IMG/VR virus record: IMGVR_UViG_3300036784_000146
Coordinates: 79,611 to 143,610 of that record
Reading direction: 5' to 3' (one strand)
Length of the DNA stretch: 64,000 nt
Source of the DNA: a virus
Lineage: Duplodnaviria > Caudoviricetes
Both the position numbers and the translations under genes were made by a program. Under the pieces are notes generated by a model, which saw only the letters and a program-made list of their open reading frames with translations, searched no databases and was not told where the DNA came from. This document shows, one piece after another, positions 50,219-54,270 of the stretch (its first letter is position 1; each line of letters begins with the position of its first letter).

Positions 50219-51009
50219 TGACCGCCGACGTGGGCCAGCAGCAGGTAGTTGCAGCTGGGGGAGAGCCACCCCGCGCCGACACCGACATCGATGCCATGGT
50301 GGCTGCCGAGATCAAGCGGTTGCGGGAAGCGGGTCAGTTAGAGGTACGCACCGAGCACCGCTGCCGGGTGTGCAAAGACGAGCCAACCCGCATGCTGATC
50401 AACAATCTGCTCGCGCGCATGATGAGCTACCGCGACATCTACACGATCATCAACGCTTCAATCAATCCGGTGCGTAAGCAACGCAACGAGCGCCCGATCA
50501 CTCAACGCATCATCGGCCACCACGCCAAAGAGCACTTCGCCATCGACAACCCGGCTTGGGCGATCTTCCGCAACATCGGGGTGCGTCGGGGCCGTCAGAT
50601 GGGCAAGGACTACGAGGACGGCATCGCCGAGACAGTCAGCCATCTGGCCTTCTTGGAAGCAGTGGTGCAGAAGGGCTGGGTGAACCTGATCCAGCCCACG
50701 ACTGAGGTGCCCTACTCGGATGGCCTGAACGCGGCGGTGAAGCTGGCCGAGATCGAAGCCAAGACCGCCGGGGCCCAGCAGCACGCGGAGATGCTGGCTC
50801 AGGTCAACCGGATCATCACGATCTTCAAGGAGAGCGTGCCTCCCGAGGAGTGGCCTGCGATCGTCGCGCGCATCCAGGGCGACGAGCTGCCGCAGTCGGC
50901 CAGCGTGCCAGCCATTGCGCAGCGAGTCATGGTCCGCGCTGCCGACGCCGATGACGAGGAGTTCGACCCGGGCGAGGATAACGACTTCGATGACGAGGAC
51001 GGGGAGTAG
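50218..51009 (+). CDS. Hypothetical CxxC/HTH-like protein with acidic tail (possibly terminase small subunit-like)
   Basis: CRVC...SYRDI...HAKEH; function is inferred only. Confidence 0.5.
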   Translation: MTADVGQQQVVAAGGEPPRADTDIDAMVAAEIKRLREAGQLEVRTEHRCRVCKDEPTRMLINNLLARMMSYRDIYTIINASINPVRKQRNERPITQRIIGHHAKEHFAIDNPAWAIFRNIGVRRGRQMGKDYEDGIAETVSHLAFLEAVVQKGWVNLIQPTTEVPYSDGLNAAVKLAEIEAKTAGAQQHAEMLAQVNRIITIFKESVPPEEWPAIVARIQGDELPQSASVPAIAQRVMVRAADADDEEFDPGEDNDFDDEDGE

Positions 51010-52073
51010 TGGCGTCGAGCCCGCTAGCTCAGGTTGACGCCAGCTCGTTCGACCAGGCTGGTGTTTCGGTGGCCACCGCCACCCGTAGCGCTTCCAACTC
51101 TCGGCTGGGGACCTTCTATGACAACACGACGATGGCGGCGGGGGCATTGGTACACGTGCACCCAATCTCCTCCTCCCAGTTTCTGGCAGCCTTCGCCCGA
51201 CGTTGGACCACCGCCACCCCCTCGCCGACACAAGCGGGCTACTTCAGCGCCCACACCGAAGACCTCACTCCCACGTGGTTCATCCTGGGCGCTTCTGGTG
51301 CTCGCACTCTTGTGGCCTCCTCCCCGGCGATTCCGATCGCCACACCTGGGCTGGGTAGCCCGACGCTTGTGGACGGCACGTCGCTCGCGGACTACGTCTT
51401 CCTGCTGCACTCCACCGCCACCGGCGGACTGATTCAGCACTTCCGGGTGGCCACCGCCGGGCGTGTGGTGCCTGTCGGCGAGGAGGTCATCCCCAACCTG
51501 GTCAGCCAGGGGGTCTCCTTCGACAAGGGCCTGGCGGTGGACAACAACTACATCACCGCGTTCGGCACCGACGCTGACGGCAACGTCTACCGGGCCCGCA
51601 AGCCCTCTGGTCAGATCGGGGGCACCTACGCCCAGAGCGCGACGGCCGCCGTCAGCCAGCTGCCTCTGGTGTGGCAGTACGGCACCGGTAGCGGCTGGGA
51701 CTCCAACCCGGCTCACGGGGCGCCGGAGGCTGGCCTGAACAGCCTGGGCCCGGTGAGCCACGTGCGCTGGCGGCGCACCCACTACCTGTCCACCGTCGCC
51801 AACTCGGGTGGCAACCAGGTGAGCCAGATCTACTCCCGGTACCCGAGCAGGCCCTGGACCAAAGTGGGTGCGCCGATCCCGCTGGGCTCCGGCGCCAACT
51901 ACCTGGGTGGTACCGCGCAACTGCAGTCCAACCTGCTGGCACCTTCGGCCATGATCAACACCCCGGCCAGCGAAACGGCCATCCCGTACGTGACGTCGAC
52001 CAAGGTCCCCTCCGGTGCGTTGAACGCCATCCACACCGCTTGGAATCTGCTGCAGATCCCTCGTCAAACTTAA
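51009..52073 (+). CDS. Hypothetical beta-rich protein (possibly virion-associated)
   Basis: 354 aa, Ser/Thr/Gly-rich. Confidence 0.6.
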   Translation: MASSPLAQVDASSFDQAGVSVATATRSASNSRLGTFYDNTTMAAGALVHVHPISSSQFLAAFARRWTTATPSPTQAGYFSAHTEDLTPTWFILGASGARTLVASSPAIPIATPGLGSPTLVDGTSLADYVFLLHSTATGGLIQHFRVATAGRVVPVGEEVIPNLVSQGVSFDKGLAVDNNYITAFGTDADGNVYRARKPSGQIGGTYAQSATAAVSQLPLVWQYGTGSGWDSNPAHGAPEAGLNSLGPVSHVRWRRTHYLSTVANSGGNQVSQIYSRYPSRPWTKVGAPIPLGSGANYLGGTAQLQSNLLAPSAMINTPASETAIPYVTSTKVPSGALNAIHTAWNLLQIPRQT

Positions 52074-52082
52074 CCCGAGGGG

Positions 52083-52112
52083 TTTACTTTTTTCCTCTAA
52101 TTTTGTTATAGT
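52083..52112 (+). promoter_or_regulatory. SigA-like promoter TTTACT-18 bp-TATAGT; leaderless start at ATG 52119
   Basis: Very AT-rich island; the A of the ATG lies 7 nt after the -10; no SD sequence. Confidence 0.75.
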
Positions 52113-52118
52113 CCCTGC

Positions 52119-52802
52119 ATGACAAACACAGAGAAGAAAAAGGCGGTCCCTCCTCCCAATGAGCCACCGCCTCCGGTAATTTCCATCTCCAAGATCGAAG
52201 CGGGCCGGATCCTCGTCCCCATTCGAGGAACCGCTCCGCTGATCATGAACAACTGGTCGGCCAAGGCCAAGCGCCAGATGCTGCTCAACATGCAGGGCGT
52301 GAAGTTGCCCAAGGAGAATAAGGACCCCGAAGCTGAATACCAGTCGGCGTTCTATCTCCTGGACGAGACCGGGCCCGAAGGCGAGAAGCGTTACGGCTTC
52401 CCGTTGATGGCCTTCAAGGAGGCCACGGTCGGTGCGGCCAGGTTCTACACCCGATCGGTGACCATGGTGGCCTTGCGGCAATTTTTGTTCTTCAAAGGCT
52501 GCTACTCCACCTCGGCCAAGCAGCAGCTGGTGGAGATCGTCGGCACACCTGAGCGGCGGGAAGATCCCGTCACCGTGGGCCGAGGTGGCCGGGATCTGCG
52601 GTACCGTCCGGAGTTCTGGCCCTGGCGAGCCACCTTGGACATCTCCTTCGCCAAGACCAATATCGATCAGGAATCGGTGCTTTCCCTGCTCGATGCCGGA
52701 GGTCTGGGTGTCGGCGTGGGCGAGTGGCGTCCGGAGAAGAAGGGCGTCTTCGGCACCTTTGAGGTGGATCCCGACGAGCCCATCGAGGTGCTCAATGGCT
52801 GA
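52119..52802 (+). CDS. RAMP/Cas7-like RNA-binding protein (candidate Vipr-like effector)
   Basis: N-terminal strand 'VPIRGTAPLIM', 'GFPLMAFKEA' (cf. RAMP IPGSSxKG), thumb-like 'VTVGRGGRDLRYRPEF', C-terminal Gly-rich loop 'AGGLGVGVGEWRPEKKGVFGTFEV'; adjacent to a repeat array. Confidence 0.7.
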   Translation: MTNTEKKKAVPPPNEPPPPVISISKIEAGRILVPIRGTAPLIMNNWSAKAKRQMLLNMQGVKLPKENKDPEAEYQSAFYLLDETGPEGEKRYGFPLMAFKEATVGAARFYTRSVTMVALRQFLFFKGCYSTSAKQQLVEIVGTPERREDPVTVGRGGRDLRYRPEFWPWRATLDISFAKTNIDQESVLSLLDAGGLGVGVGEWRPEKKGVFGTFEVDPDEPIEVLNG

Positions 52803-53229
52803 TCTGCGGTCAGTGTTGGTGGACCATTACGAGCGGTTCGGCAGCTTGAAGGATGAGGACCTTGTCAGGGAGGCCACCGTGGCCTCCCATCCTCTCCACG
52901 ATCGTTTTGAATGGGACGATCAGGTCGCCGGACACCAGTACCGTTGCTGGCAGGCTCGACAGCTGGTTAAGACCGTAAAGCAGTCGTTCTCCAACCACGA
53001 CGGCGAGCGCCGCAGCGTGCGGTTCTGGTTATCCAGCTATGAGGCCGGAAATCCAGAAGTCACGGCCGGGACGTTTGAACCGGCCGAGCAAATAATGGCA
53101 GATCCCATTCGGGCAGAGATCGAGTTGCGGTCATGCAAGCGAGCAATCGCTGACCTACGCCGTCGCTATGAGCATCTGGCCGAGTTCAAAGAGCTGGTGC
53201 AGCGGGGGTTGCTCCAAGAAGAAGGGTAG
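52795..53229 (+). CDS. Array-associated accessory protein (144 aa)
   Basis: ATG 52795 overlaps the end of the RAMP-like gene; 'HPLHDRFEWDD..AG.QYR..QARQL' motif; stop codon is 6 bp before the array. Confidence 0.75.
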   Translation: MADLRSVLVDHYERFGSLKDEDLVREATVASHPLHDRFEWDDQVAGHQYRCWQARQLVKTVKQSFSNHDGERRSVRFWLSSYEAGNPEVTAGTFEPAEQIMADPIRAEIELRSCKRAIADLRRRYEHLAEFKELVQRGLLQEEG

Positions 53230-53235
53230 CCACGA

Positions 53236-54210
53236 GGCAGTCATGGCACGGCTCGGTTCCGCGCGTCGGGGCTCGGTAAGGCGTGGCAGGCACGTTCTGG
53301 CCAGGTGTGGCCCGTCGGGGCATGGCAAGGCAGGCGAGGCCAGGCCCGTCGAGGCCTGGCGCGGTCCGGCTAGGCATGGCAGGCGGGGCAAGGCATGGTG
53401 CGGTCGGGCTAGGCAAGGCTGGGCAAGGCAGGCAAGGTACGGCAAGGCGGGGCGCAGCGCGGCCCGGCGAGGCAGGCTTGGTCCGGCCTGGCGTGGTGAG
53501 GCTTGGCCTGGCGTGGCGCGGTTCGGCAAGGCAGGCTCGGCAGAGCATGGTGCGGTCGGGCTAGGCGTGGCGCGGCTTGGCAGGCGCGGCATATCTTGGC
53601 TGGGTACGGCGGGGCAAGGCTGGGTAAGGCAGGCACGGTATGGTGTGGCCGGTTTTGGCTCGGTTTGGCGAGGCTTGGCAGGCTAGTTAGGCAGGGCATT
53701 GCATGTCAAGGCTAGGCATGTCAAGGCAGGCGCGGCTGGTCCAGGCGAGGTACGGATTGGTACGGCACGGTCCGGCAGGCACGGCGTGGTCAGGCAAGGC
53801 GCGGCTAGGCACGGCAACGCAGGCAGGGCTCGGTGCGGTTGGGCGCGGCTTGGTATGGCAAGGCAGTCGCGGCTGGGCACGGCCAGGCAAGTTCTGGCTC
53901 CGGCTAGGCGTGGCATGGCAGGCTCGGTTGGGCTTGTCCAGGCAGGGCGCGGTGTGGTTAGGCGTGACATGGCAGGCAGGGCAAGGTTCGGCTAGTCAGG
54001 GCCCGGCAAGGTCCGTCAAGGCAGGCATGGCAAGGTCAGGCGGGGTGTGGCCTGGCAAGGCGCGGCTAGGCAGGCACGGCTCTGTTCGGCGCGGCGAGGC
54101 AGGGTTACGCACGGCAAGGCAGGCCAGGCATGGCAGGTTGCGTCAGGGCTAGGCAGGGTTTGTCAAGGCAGGCCAGGCGGGGTTAGGCGCGGCTTGTCGG
54201 GGTAGGGTTC
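53236..54210 (+). ncRNA. GGY-NN pentamer array: 20 units of GGCA + (GGY-NN)8-11, about 179 pentamers; candidate guide-RNA array
   Basis: Parsed by hand. Unit starts: 53236, 53285, 53329, 53378, 53427, 53471, 53530, 53579, 53628, 53677, 53725, 53774, 53818, 53862, 53917, 53971, 54020, 54069, 54118, 54167. The repeat structure is certain; the RNA function is inferred. Confidence 0.8.
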
Positions 54211-54222
54211 GGCTGGCGTGGT

Positions 54223-54270
54223 GGGAAGTTGGGGTGAATGCGGCTACAATCGGATTCACCCCAATTTTCC
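54223..54270 (+). terminator. Stem-loop closing the array
   Basis: TTGGGGTGAAT (54229-54239) pairs perfectly with ATTCACCCCAA (54254-54264), extendable to about 17 bp with G-U pairs. Confidence 0.7.

What the first reader, a model, noticed from the sequence alone, without database searches (positions are those of the whole stretch)
53236..54210. Array grammar and decoded dinucleotide strings of the 20 units
Hand-parsed NN strings: U1 AT-AC-TC-TC-GC-GG-TC-AA-GT; U2 AC-CT-CA-GT-CC-GG-AT-AA; U3 GA-CA-CC-GA-CT-GC-CC-TA-AT; U4 GG-AA-AT-GC-CG-TA-AA-TG-AA; U5 AA-AC-AA-GG-GC-GC-CC-GA; U6 TT-CC-CT-GT-GA-TT-CT-GT-GC-TC-AA; U7 TC-AG-AT-GC-CG-TA-GT-GC-TT; U8 GC-AT-TT-TG-AC-GG-AA-TG-AA; U9 AC-AT-GT-CG-TT-TC-TT-GA-TT; U10 TA-(TA)-AG-AT-AT-AA-TA-AT-AA; U11 GC-TG-CA-GA-AC-TT-AC-AC-CC; U12 AC-GT-CA-AA-GC-TA-AC-AA; U13 AG-TC-GC-TG-GC-TT-AT-AA; U14 GC-TG-AC-CA-AA-CT-TC-TA-GT-AT; U15 TC-TG-TT-CA-AG-GC-GT-TA-GT-AT; U16 AG-AA-TC-TA-AG-CC-AA-CC-AA; U17 AT-AA-CA-GG-GT-CT-AA-GC-TA; U18 AC-TC-TC-GC-GA-AG-TA-AC-AA; U19 CA-AT-AG-GC-AG-TA-AG-TT-AA; U20 CA-GG-TA-GC-TT-GG-AG-TC. 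All 16 dinucleotides occur and every unit is unique. Position 3 is almost always a pyrimidine (one GGA exception), while positions 1-2 tolerate GT, CG, AG, TG, GA and AT. Only two 1-nt indels appear (U10, U14). The last NN before GGCA is AA in 10 of 20 units, suggesting a processing or boundary signal. A constant scaffold with high-entropy slots is what information storage under selection looks like, rather than slippage. If targets are read as NNx-NNx, a guide could ignore codon wobble positions (inference).
Basis: partly seen in the sequence, partly recalled or inferred. Interest (0 to 1): 0.9.

Follow-up and report, generated by a model that had tools for sequence, protein, structure and literature searches.

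The report
Phage VIPR guide-RNA array, targets found
This 1-kb repeat tract is the 20-guide RNA array of a VIPR system, a CRISPR-like DNA silencer of phages first described in 2026, and at least four of its guides spell the conserved core of a regulator gene carried by rival relatives of this phage but not by its own copy.

Summary
In detail: window 53236-54215 holds 20 unique units.

It is the guide array of a VIPR locus. VIPR is a known kind, described in bioRxiv 10.64898/2026.04.26.720920 and .720927. This scan has already noted VIPR loci on other DNA; those notes led me to the papers.
- The gene at 52119-52802 folds as a Cas7/Csm3-like RAMP (Z 11.4).
- A partner gene (vap) lies at 52795-53229.
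- A promoter-like site precedes the operon and a strong hairpin followed by T-rich sequence follows it.
- 77 of 83 loci with this protein carry such arrays, always on the gene's strand.

- U7 (17/18) and U8 (15/18) abut on 18 consecutive codons of a phrog_2807 Zn-ribbon gene.
- U14 matches the same family 20/20, and U15 matches it 16/20 in Gordonia phage Stormageddon.
- The phage's own copy of this gene escapes.

The suggested 'AA' boundary signal is local to this phage, not a family feature. Verdict: a new member of a known kind, with a tail-less GGCA-punctuated array.

The parts
52083..52112 (+). Promoter-like site (TTTACT, 18-nt spacer, TATAGT, with TG before the second hexamer), 7 nt upstream of vipr
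   Evidence: Consensus scan: 1 site found against 0.3 expected in shuffles. A short hairpin followed by T-rich sequence at 52072-52084 ends the upstream gene. Promoter function is inferred.
52119..52802 (+). vipr: a 227-aa Cas7/Csm3-like RAMP protein (phrog_4652)
   Evidence: AF2 model, pLDDT 87. All top Foldseek PDB hits are Cas7-family proteins: Csm3 at E 5e-6, then type VII Cas7, Cmr4 and Cas7-11. VIA-align gives Z 11.4, rmsd 3.4 A over 160 residues, spanning residues 26-227. G199, G201, E202, W203 and R204 in the G-loop and R161, Y162 and R163 are invariant; assigning R161-Y162-R163 to the thumb is my inference.
52795..53229 (+). vap-like accessory gene: 144 aa, phrog_15946, invariant PLHDRFEW motif; overlaps vipr by 8 nt
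   Evidence: A profile of this family hits 112 of 113 vipr loci that have full flanks, always on the vipr strand. The model has pLDDT 85 with only weak winged-helix-like matches, Z 5.1-5.6.
53236..54215 (+). vrRNA array: 20 units of GGCA + (GGY-NN) x 8-11, with no conserved tail between units
   Evidence: Guides with identified targets: U7 (53530), U8 (53579), U14 (53862), U15 (53917).
54229..54270 (+). Strong hairpin followed by T-rich sequence (TTTTCC) directly after the last unit: probable terminator of the operon
   Evidence: strand folding: -42.5 kcal/mol, z -5.2, 0 of 200 shuffles fold as well. Terminator function is inferred.
50353..50892 (+). The phage's own member of the targeted gene family (phrog_2807-like Zn-ribbon protein), with a diverged target block
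   Evidence: tblastn with the G052 target protein: 31% identity, E 7e-22. The block reads ITQRIIGHHAKEHFAIDNPAWAIFRNIGV. The best in-frame guide matches are 11-12 of 18-20, which is background level. The genome-wide self-search is also at shuffle level.

Best explanation
The tract is the guide-RNA (vrRNA) array of a VIPR system.

Proposed mechanism:
1. The operon vipr-vap-array is transcribed from its own promoter and ends at the hairpin after unit 20.
2. Copies of the Cas7-like Vipr protein bind the RNA, one per pentamer. They hold each GGY and expose the two free bases.
3. The exposed NN pairs read double-stranded DNA as NNxNNx..., skipping every third base. A guide therefore recognises codon positions 1-2 of a protein motif whatever the wobble base is.
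4. The bound filament blocks transcription.
5. Each GGCA, a 4-nt phase slip, delimits one guide of 8-11 NN.

In this 143.6-kb myovirus, a distant relative of mycobacteriophage clusters AA and C, at least four guides (U7, U8, U14, U15) aim at the most conserved block of a Zn-ribbon/HTH-like gene (phrog_2807). Related large actinobacterial myoviruses and elements in Mycobacteriaceae genomes carry this gene. The phage's own allele has diverged and escapes. The likely role is interference with rival phages or elements in the same host.

Shown here: the array grammar, the protein fold, the gene-array linkage and the in-frame skip-1 matches.
Taken from the papers, where it was shown for type II systems: filament formation, GGY sequestration and silencing.
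Inferred: expression, cleavage at GGCA, and the biological effect on rivals.
For: Grammar: the array grammar is confirmed.

Protein: Vipr has a Cas7/Csm3 fold. The G-loop E-W-R is invariant. It is the same kind of motif as D177-W178-R179, which reads GGY in SUSP1 Vipr (10.64898/2026.04.26.720927).

Linkage:
- 77 of 83 vipr loci have arrays on the gene's strand and none on the other.
- Three gene orders occur: array-A-B, A-array-B and A-B-array.
- vap is present in 112 of 113 full loci.
- GGCA accounts for 796 of 1010 4-nt phase slips, and unit lengths are 5n+4.

Code, family-wide:
- 564 units were searched against 1.03 Mb. Skip 1 gives 7 units at 0.90 or better against 2 for shuffles. Skips 0, 2 and 3 stay at background.
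- One guide in L083 matches 16/16 in about 22 rival vipr genes at the E-D-M-V-R-V-G motif, differing only at wobble bases.
- One guide in L120 matches 18-19/20 antisense to the vap motif HPLH(D/N)RFEW.

This window's guides:
- U14 matches 20/20 in 14 soil contigs of GC 60-66%, in frame, on ITYDSLWVHA. That is the most conserved block of the family.
- U7 (17/18) and U8 (15/18) abut with one skip base between them, in array order, in two copies that differ at wobble bases. U14 matches 17/20 at 2.2 kb from them. A match of 15/18 or better at one fixed position has chance about 3e-7.
- U15 matches 16/20 on the homologous block of Stormageddon gp83.
- The target family is phrog_2807, E 7.5e-62. It is found in phages E3, Finch, Stormageddon and cluster C.
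- There is no self-target.
Against: - Transcription, processing at GGCA and RNP formation are therefore unproven for this clade.
- Exact-match scans for U1, U4, U6 and U7 in IMG/VR, and for U6 in metagenomes, gave hit numbers that chance predicts.
- 16 of the 20 guides have no identified target.
- The best U7, U8 and U14 targets lie in bacterial contigs, not in a demonstrated phage. In sequenced phages the matches are weaker (10-16 of 18-20).
- SUSP1 Vipr is too distant for a sequence alignment, so the residue correspondence is by motif only.
- The skip-1 rule was shown experimentally only for type II systems, whose vrRNAs carry a structured 3' tail. This array lacks such a tail.
Confidence: 0.88

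Rival explanations
1. The tract is a protein-coding gene for a pentapeptide-repeat (A-R-x-G-x-like) protein. GenBank annotates the equivalent tracts this way in phage Donkeykong (gp48) and phage Pipp (gp43).
For: GGCNN x 3 gives 15-nt (5-aa) repeats, and long ORFs of 172 and 149 aa cross parts of the array. The equivalent tracts are annotated as hypothetical proteins.
Against: All three + frames are interrupted inside the array. The 4-nt GGCA step shifts the frame about every 49 nt. The conserved positions are GGY in every phase, not codon-wise. In Ecliptus the tract is left unannotated. The NN strings match foreign genes under the skip-1 code.
Confidence: 0.02
2. The tract is a sequence-specific scaffold only. 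The Cas7-like protein coats the GGY-NN RNA or single-stranded DNA as a structural or sponge filament, and the NN are unconstrained filler without guide function.
For: NN composition is nearly uniform: 3.87-3.93 of 4 bits. Most guides have no target in the collections searched.
Against: Filler would not give adjacent in-frame 17/18 + 15/18 matches, a 20/20 match on the most conserved block of one gene family, or guides that hit about 22 rival vipr genes while differing only at wobble bases. Published biochemistry shows the NN are programmable (10.64898/2026.04.26.720920).
Confidence: 0.05
3. The array is real VIPR guide RNA, but the phrog_2807 matches reflect where the guides were copied from (ancestry), not present-day targeting of rivals.
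For: U7 and U8 are collinear with a contiguous 54-nt stretch of the target, as expected if guides are copied from a template. The phage has its own diverged homolog 2.3 kb upstream.
Against: Only NN positions match while wobble bases vary between copies. That pattern is what selection for recognition predicts. Origin by copying and present function are not exclusive.
Confidence: 0.05

Closest known systems
VIPR systems (Vipr + vrRNA + vap), type II of Escherichia phage SUSP1 and the Pseudomonas fulva prophage (bioRxiv 10.64898/2026.04.26.720920, .720927, 2026.10.15.759431)
   Same: A solo Cas7-like RAMP gene, a small accessory gene, and same-strand arrays of GGY-NN pentamers with 8-11 repeats per guide (the papers report 9-16). 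Targets are read NNx, in frame with the wobble base. Guides are aimed at rival mobile elements, including other VIPR loci. There is no self-targeting.
   Different: No invariant structured 3' tail or pseudoknot lies between guides; units are delimited only by a 4-nt GGCA phase slip. This is probably the 'staggered array' of the paper's fig. S18. That architecture is not among the two that the paper says it confirmed by small-RNA sequencing, and I could not view the figure. The array has 20 guides in one tract. The host clade is Actinomycetota. The protein is too far from SUSP1 Vipr for tblastn. The VIPR type (I-VII) could not be assigned from the text held.
Type III CRISPR-Cas backbone (Csm3/Cmr4 on crRNA)
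   Same: The fold (Z 11.4 to Csm3), with a G-rich loop and a conserved basic motif at the expected thumb position. One protomer binds per RNA period, and guide lengths are quantised by the protomer step.
   Different: The period is 5 nt with three bases held and two read, against 6 nt with five read. There is no repeat-spacer array. No cas genes were noticed beside the locus, though I did not search for them systematically. The target is double-stranded DNA read with gaps.
TRAP-type ring proteins binding (G/U)AG-NN repeats
   Same: A triplet-plus-spacer RNA period of about 5 nt.
   Different: The fold is unrelated. Unit lengths vary from 7 to 14 pentamers, so there is no fixed ring size. I considered this early and dropped it.

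Membership tests
VIPR system | Vipr: a small single-RRM RAMP protein with a Cas7-like fold | tested here: met
   pLDDT 87. All top PDB matches are Cas7-family proteins. Csm3 gives Z 11.4, rmsd 3.4 A over 160 residues.
VIPR system | G-loop and thumb residues that hold GGY (SUSP1: D177-W178-R179, R138, H17) | tested here: inconclusive
   The family has invariant E202-W203-R204 in a G-rich loop and invariant R161-Y162-R163, plus near-invariant H44. No alignment to SUSP1 Vipr could be made, so the correspondence is by motif only.
VIPR system | Adjacent same-strand tandem GGY-NN (YNNGG) repeats with hypervariable NN | tested here: met
   GGC, GGT and GTC dominate the triplets. NN entropy is 3.9 of 4 bits.
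VIPR system | Accessory vap gene in the locus | tested here: met
   The B family is next to vipr in 112 of 113 full loci. Which of vap1-6 it is remains unknown. The winged-helix likeness is weak.
VIPR system | Targets follow the 1-nt skip rule, with the skip base at the codon wobble position | tested here: met
   Family-wide, only skip 1 exceeds shuffles. Window guides U7, U8, U14 and U15 match in frame.
VIPR system | No self-targeting | tested here: met
   The own genome is at shuffle level for skips 0-3. The own phrog_2807 allele scores 11-12 of 18-20.
VIPR system | vrRNA expressed and bound by Vipr; transcriptional silencing of targets | not testable with these tools
No RNA-protein modelling was available.
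CRISPR-Cas (type III) | Array of direct repeats of about 24-40 nt separated by unique spacers | tested here: not met
   Only periods of 5 and about 49 nt were found. The only constant element between units is GGCA.

The most novel reading that the evidence does not exclude
The array records how VIPR guides are made.
- U7 and U8, neighbours in the array, are collinear with one uninterrupted 54-nt stretch of the rival's gene.
- U14 and U15, also neighbours, address two alleles of the same codon block.

This suggests two routes to new guides: templated copying of long target stretches into GGY-spaced form, and duplication followed by retargeting. Together they would be a guide-acquisition route without Cas1/Cas2.

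In addition, tail-less guides delimited only by a 4-nt phase slip would imply a new way of ending Vipr filaments or of processing the RNA.
Probability: 0.25. Interest if true: 0.75.

Novelty: new member of a known kind. Interest (0 to 1): 0.5.

Why it matters
VIPR was described only in 2026, from enterobacterial and Pseudomonas examples.

What this locus adds:
- The same gapped code operates in actinobacteriophages, with a minimal, tail-less array architecture.
- It offers a concrete target set that can be tested: a conserved Zn-ribbon regulator-like gene that lies next to the phage sigma factor gene in phages E3 and Finch and also occurs in Stormageddon and cluster C phages.
- It gives an example of self-escape through divergence of the phage's own allele.

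It also flags GenBank 'hypothetical proteins' that are really guide arrays: Donkeykong gp48 and Pipp gp43. Cluster F mycobacteriophages grown on M. smegmatis carry the same module, so the biology is accessible in a standard laboratory host.

Tried and rejected
Ideas dropped:
- A TRAP-like ring model and a two-tetrad G-quadruplex model. Unit lengths vary and the Cas7 fold was found.
- The Tweety gp54 tetrapeptide repeat. It is a different, 12-bp coding repeat.

Exact NNx scans:
- IMG/VR: U6, U14 and U15 gave none. U1 gave 7 hits, which are two independent loci in contigs of GC 34-36%. U4 gave 3 identical hits. U7 gave 13 hits, all in one ORF family of about 133 aa at GC about 50%.
- Metagenomes: U6 gave none.
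- These numbers fit chance for 18-22 specified bases, inflated by family size.

Other negative or inconclusive results:
- U15 and U4 have no match with up to 3 mismatches in genome G052.
- A codon-composition likelihood favours the wobble-skip phase over the other two phases, but a uniform model fits better.
- Shared sub-blocks between units are not significant overall.
- Foldseek found no PDB match for protein B at E 0.001 or better.
- Rfam has no family for the tract.
- The phage has no DNA-level relatives in the phage collection.
- The VIPR type could not be read from the paper's text or supplement.

Full report
**Observation.** The tract at window 53236-54215 has a strict 5-nt period and a roughly 49-nt super-period marked by GGCAGGY. 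A dynamic-programming tokeniser splits it into 20 units, each GGCA followed by 8-11 GGY-NN pentamers. All 16 dinucleotides occur, at 3.87 of 4 bits. All units are unique. Position 3 is a pyrimidine in 178 of 179 pentamers. The last NN is AA in 10 of 20 units.

**Surroundings.** The array is the last element of a compact operon.
- A promoter-like site with an extended -10 lies at 52083-52112.
- Gene A is at 52119-52802 (227 aa, phrog_4652).
- Gene B is at 52795-53229 (144 aa, phrog_15946) and overlaps A by 8 nt.
- The array follows, and then a strong hairpin followed by T-rich sequence at 54229-54270 (z -5.2).

**Protein A.** It belongs to a large family, with 2684 hits and no Pfam domain. Its AlphaFold model has pLDDT 87. 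The model matches only Cas7-family RAMPs: Csm3 at Foldseek E 5e-6 and at Z 11.4, rmsd 3.4 A over 160 residues, followed by type VII Cas7, Cmr4 and Cas7-11.

**Protein B.** It has an invariant PLHDRFEW motif. Its model shows a weakly winged-helix-like N-domain plus a helical hairpin, with Z 5.1-5.6. That is not decisive.

**Linkage.**
- The same three parts occur together in Gordonia phages Pipp and Ecliptus in the order A-array-B. In cluster F mycobacteriophages such as Donkeykong the order is array-A-B. Here it is A-B-array. All parts are always on one strand.
- Of 83 loci holding an A homolog, 77 have at least one such array on the gene's strand and none on the opposite strand.
- B is present in 112 of 113 loci with full flanks.
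- Across 361 clean units the length is 5n+4, with 7-14 pentamers and a mode of 10. NN entropy is 3.93 bits.
- GGCA makes up 796 of 1010 four-nucleotide phase slips.
- The last NN is AA in only 5% of units family-wide.

**What it is.** Earlier notes of this scan pointed to VIPR, and I checked the papers myself. The first paper, bioRxiv 10.64898/2026.04.26.720920, describes phage-borne systems of a RAMP protein (Vipr), an accessory gene (vap) and vrRNAs of alternating GGY/NN. These read double-stranded DNA by a '1-nt skip rule' (NNxNNx), with the skipped base mostly at the codon wobble position. They silence transcription of competing elements.

The structure paper (.720927) shows one protomer per repeat. 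GGY is held by thumb R138 and by G-loop D177-W178-R179. Family A has an invariant E-W-R in its G-rich loop and an invariant R-Y-R, which I take to be the thumb.

The first paper mentions 'staggered arrays' (fig. S18). That architecture is not among the two it says it confirmed by small-RNA sequencing. The GGCA-punctuated, tail-less array here is probably that architecture (inference).

**Independent test of the code.**
- The own genome shows no self-target above shuffles for skips 0-3.
- I searched 564 units from all held loci against 1.03 Mb of VIPR-flanking DNA. Only skip 1 exceeded shuffles.
- One guide in L083 matches 16/16 in about 22 rival vipr genes at the conserved E-D-M-V-R-V-G motif, differing only at wobble bases. 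Its own gene reads ...MVRIG and scores 13/16.
- One guide in L120 matches 18-19/20 antisense to the invariant vap motif.

**Targets of this window's guides.**
- Exact scans of IMG/VR gave chance-level numbers.
- In metagenomes U14 gave 15 exact hits. Fourteen of them lie in one gene family in soil contigs of GC 60-66%, in frame on ITYDSLWVHA. That is the most conserved block of the family.
- The family is phrog_2807, a Zn-ribbon (CxxC) protein, at E 7.5e-62.
- One of 401 sampled genomes of the (unnamed) family of a Gordonia MAG, called Mycobacteriaceae in this report, holds the family: G052, in three places, one of them interrupted by a stop codon.
- In G052, U7 (17/18) and U8 (15/18) abut on codons RHFPVQNVA|KATYREILE. 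One skip base lies between them and they follow the array order. This occurs in two copies that differ at wobble bases. U14 (17/20) lies 2.2 kb away in a paralog.
- U15 matches 16/20 on the homologous block of Gordonia phage Stormageddon gp83.
- The family is conserved in Rhodococcus phages E3 and Finch, Gordonia phage Stormageddon and cluster C mycobacteriophages. In E3 and Finch it lies next to a phage sigma factor gene.
- These phages are relatives of this one: its DnaE is 49% identical to that of phage Phrappuccino and 44% to cluster C.
- The window's own homolog (50353-50892) has a diverged block and escapes.

**Evolution.** Loci that are 85-91% identical in their flanks share only 0-1 units. 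This indicates cassette-like turnover, not slippage.

**Verdict.** This is a new member of a known kind. Sixteen guides remain without a target. Expression and processing are untested.

Noticed in passing
L001 4004-4360 (Donkeykong gp48); L003 4000-4235 (Pipp gp43): GenBank annotates these tracts as protein-coding 'hypothetical proteins'. They are GGY-NN guide arrays next to vipr and vap homologs, so they are probably mis-annotated.
   Followed up: partly
L083 about 3998; L120 about 3706: Guides in other actinobacterial VIPR loci spell conserved motifs of rival vipr genes (EDMVRVG) and vap genes (HPLHDRFEW). This looks like VIPR-against-VIPR conflict in this clade.
   Followed up: yes
L200 12064-17923 (G052:C8): The phrog_2807 copy hit by U7 and U8 lies 261 nt upstream, on the same strand, of genes resembling a McrBC-type (type IV) restriction module (my inference from the domains). 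They are a 983-aa protein with weak, sub-threshold AAA ATPase hits and a DUF2357/PD-(D/E)XK protein. HNH genes lie nearby. A block at this site might also shut off a defence operon.
   Followed up: partly
L177-L189: U7 has 13 exact skip-1 matches on KATYRAILE in an ORF of about 133 aa. The contigs are viral, GC about 50%, and include a giant-virus MAG. The wobble bases vary between hits. I counted this as one chance event, but the same peptide block occurs in the real target family.
   Followed up: partly
window 53677-53724 (U10): This unit is degenerate (GTTA, TGCAT, GTCAA tokens) and its NN are almost all A/T. It is either a decaying guide or one aimed at an AT-rich, non-coding site.
   Followed up: no
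L010 3793-6590; L063 5440-6630; L055 4606-5722: Some relatives carry very long arrays: more than 2.8 kb in five blocks, more than 1.2 kb, and 1.1 kb. L074 and L029 have arrays on both sides of the genes.
   Followed up: no
window 51009-52073: The 354-aa gene (phrog_2898) between the phage's own phrog_2807 homolog and the VIPR operon may correspond to the ~335-360-aa gene in the same position in other phages (homology not tested). That gene is annotated 'hydrolase' in Stormageddon and 'glycosyl hydrolase' in Finch, but 'hypothetical protein' in E3 and only 'gp212' in Catera. If it does correspond, the VIPR operon looks like an insertion into a conserved gene order.
   Followed up: partly
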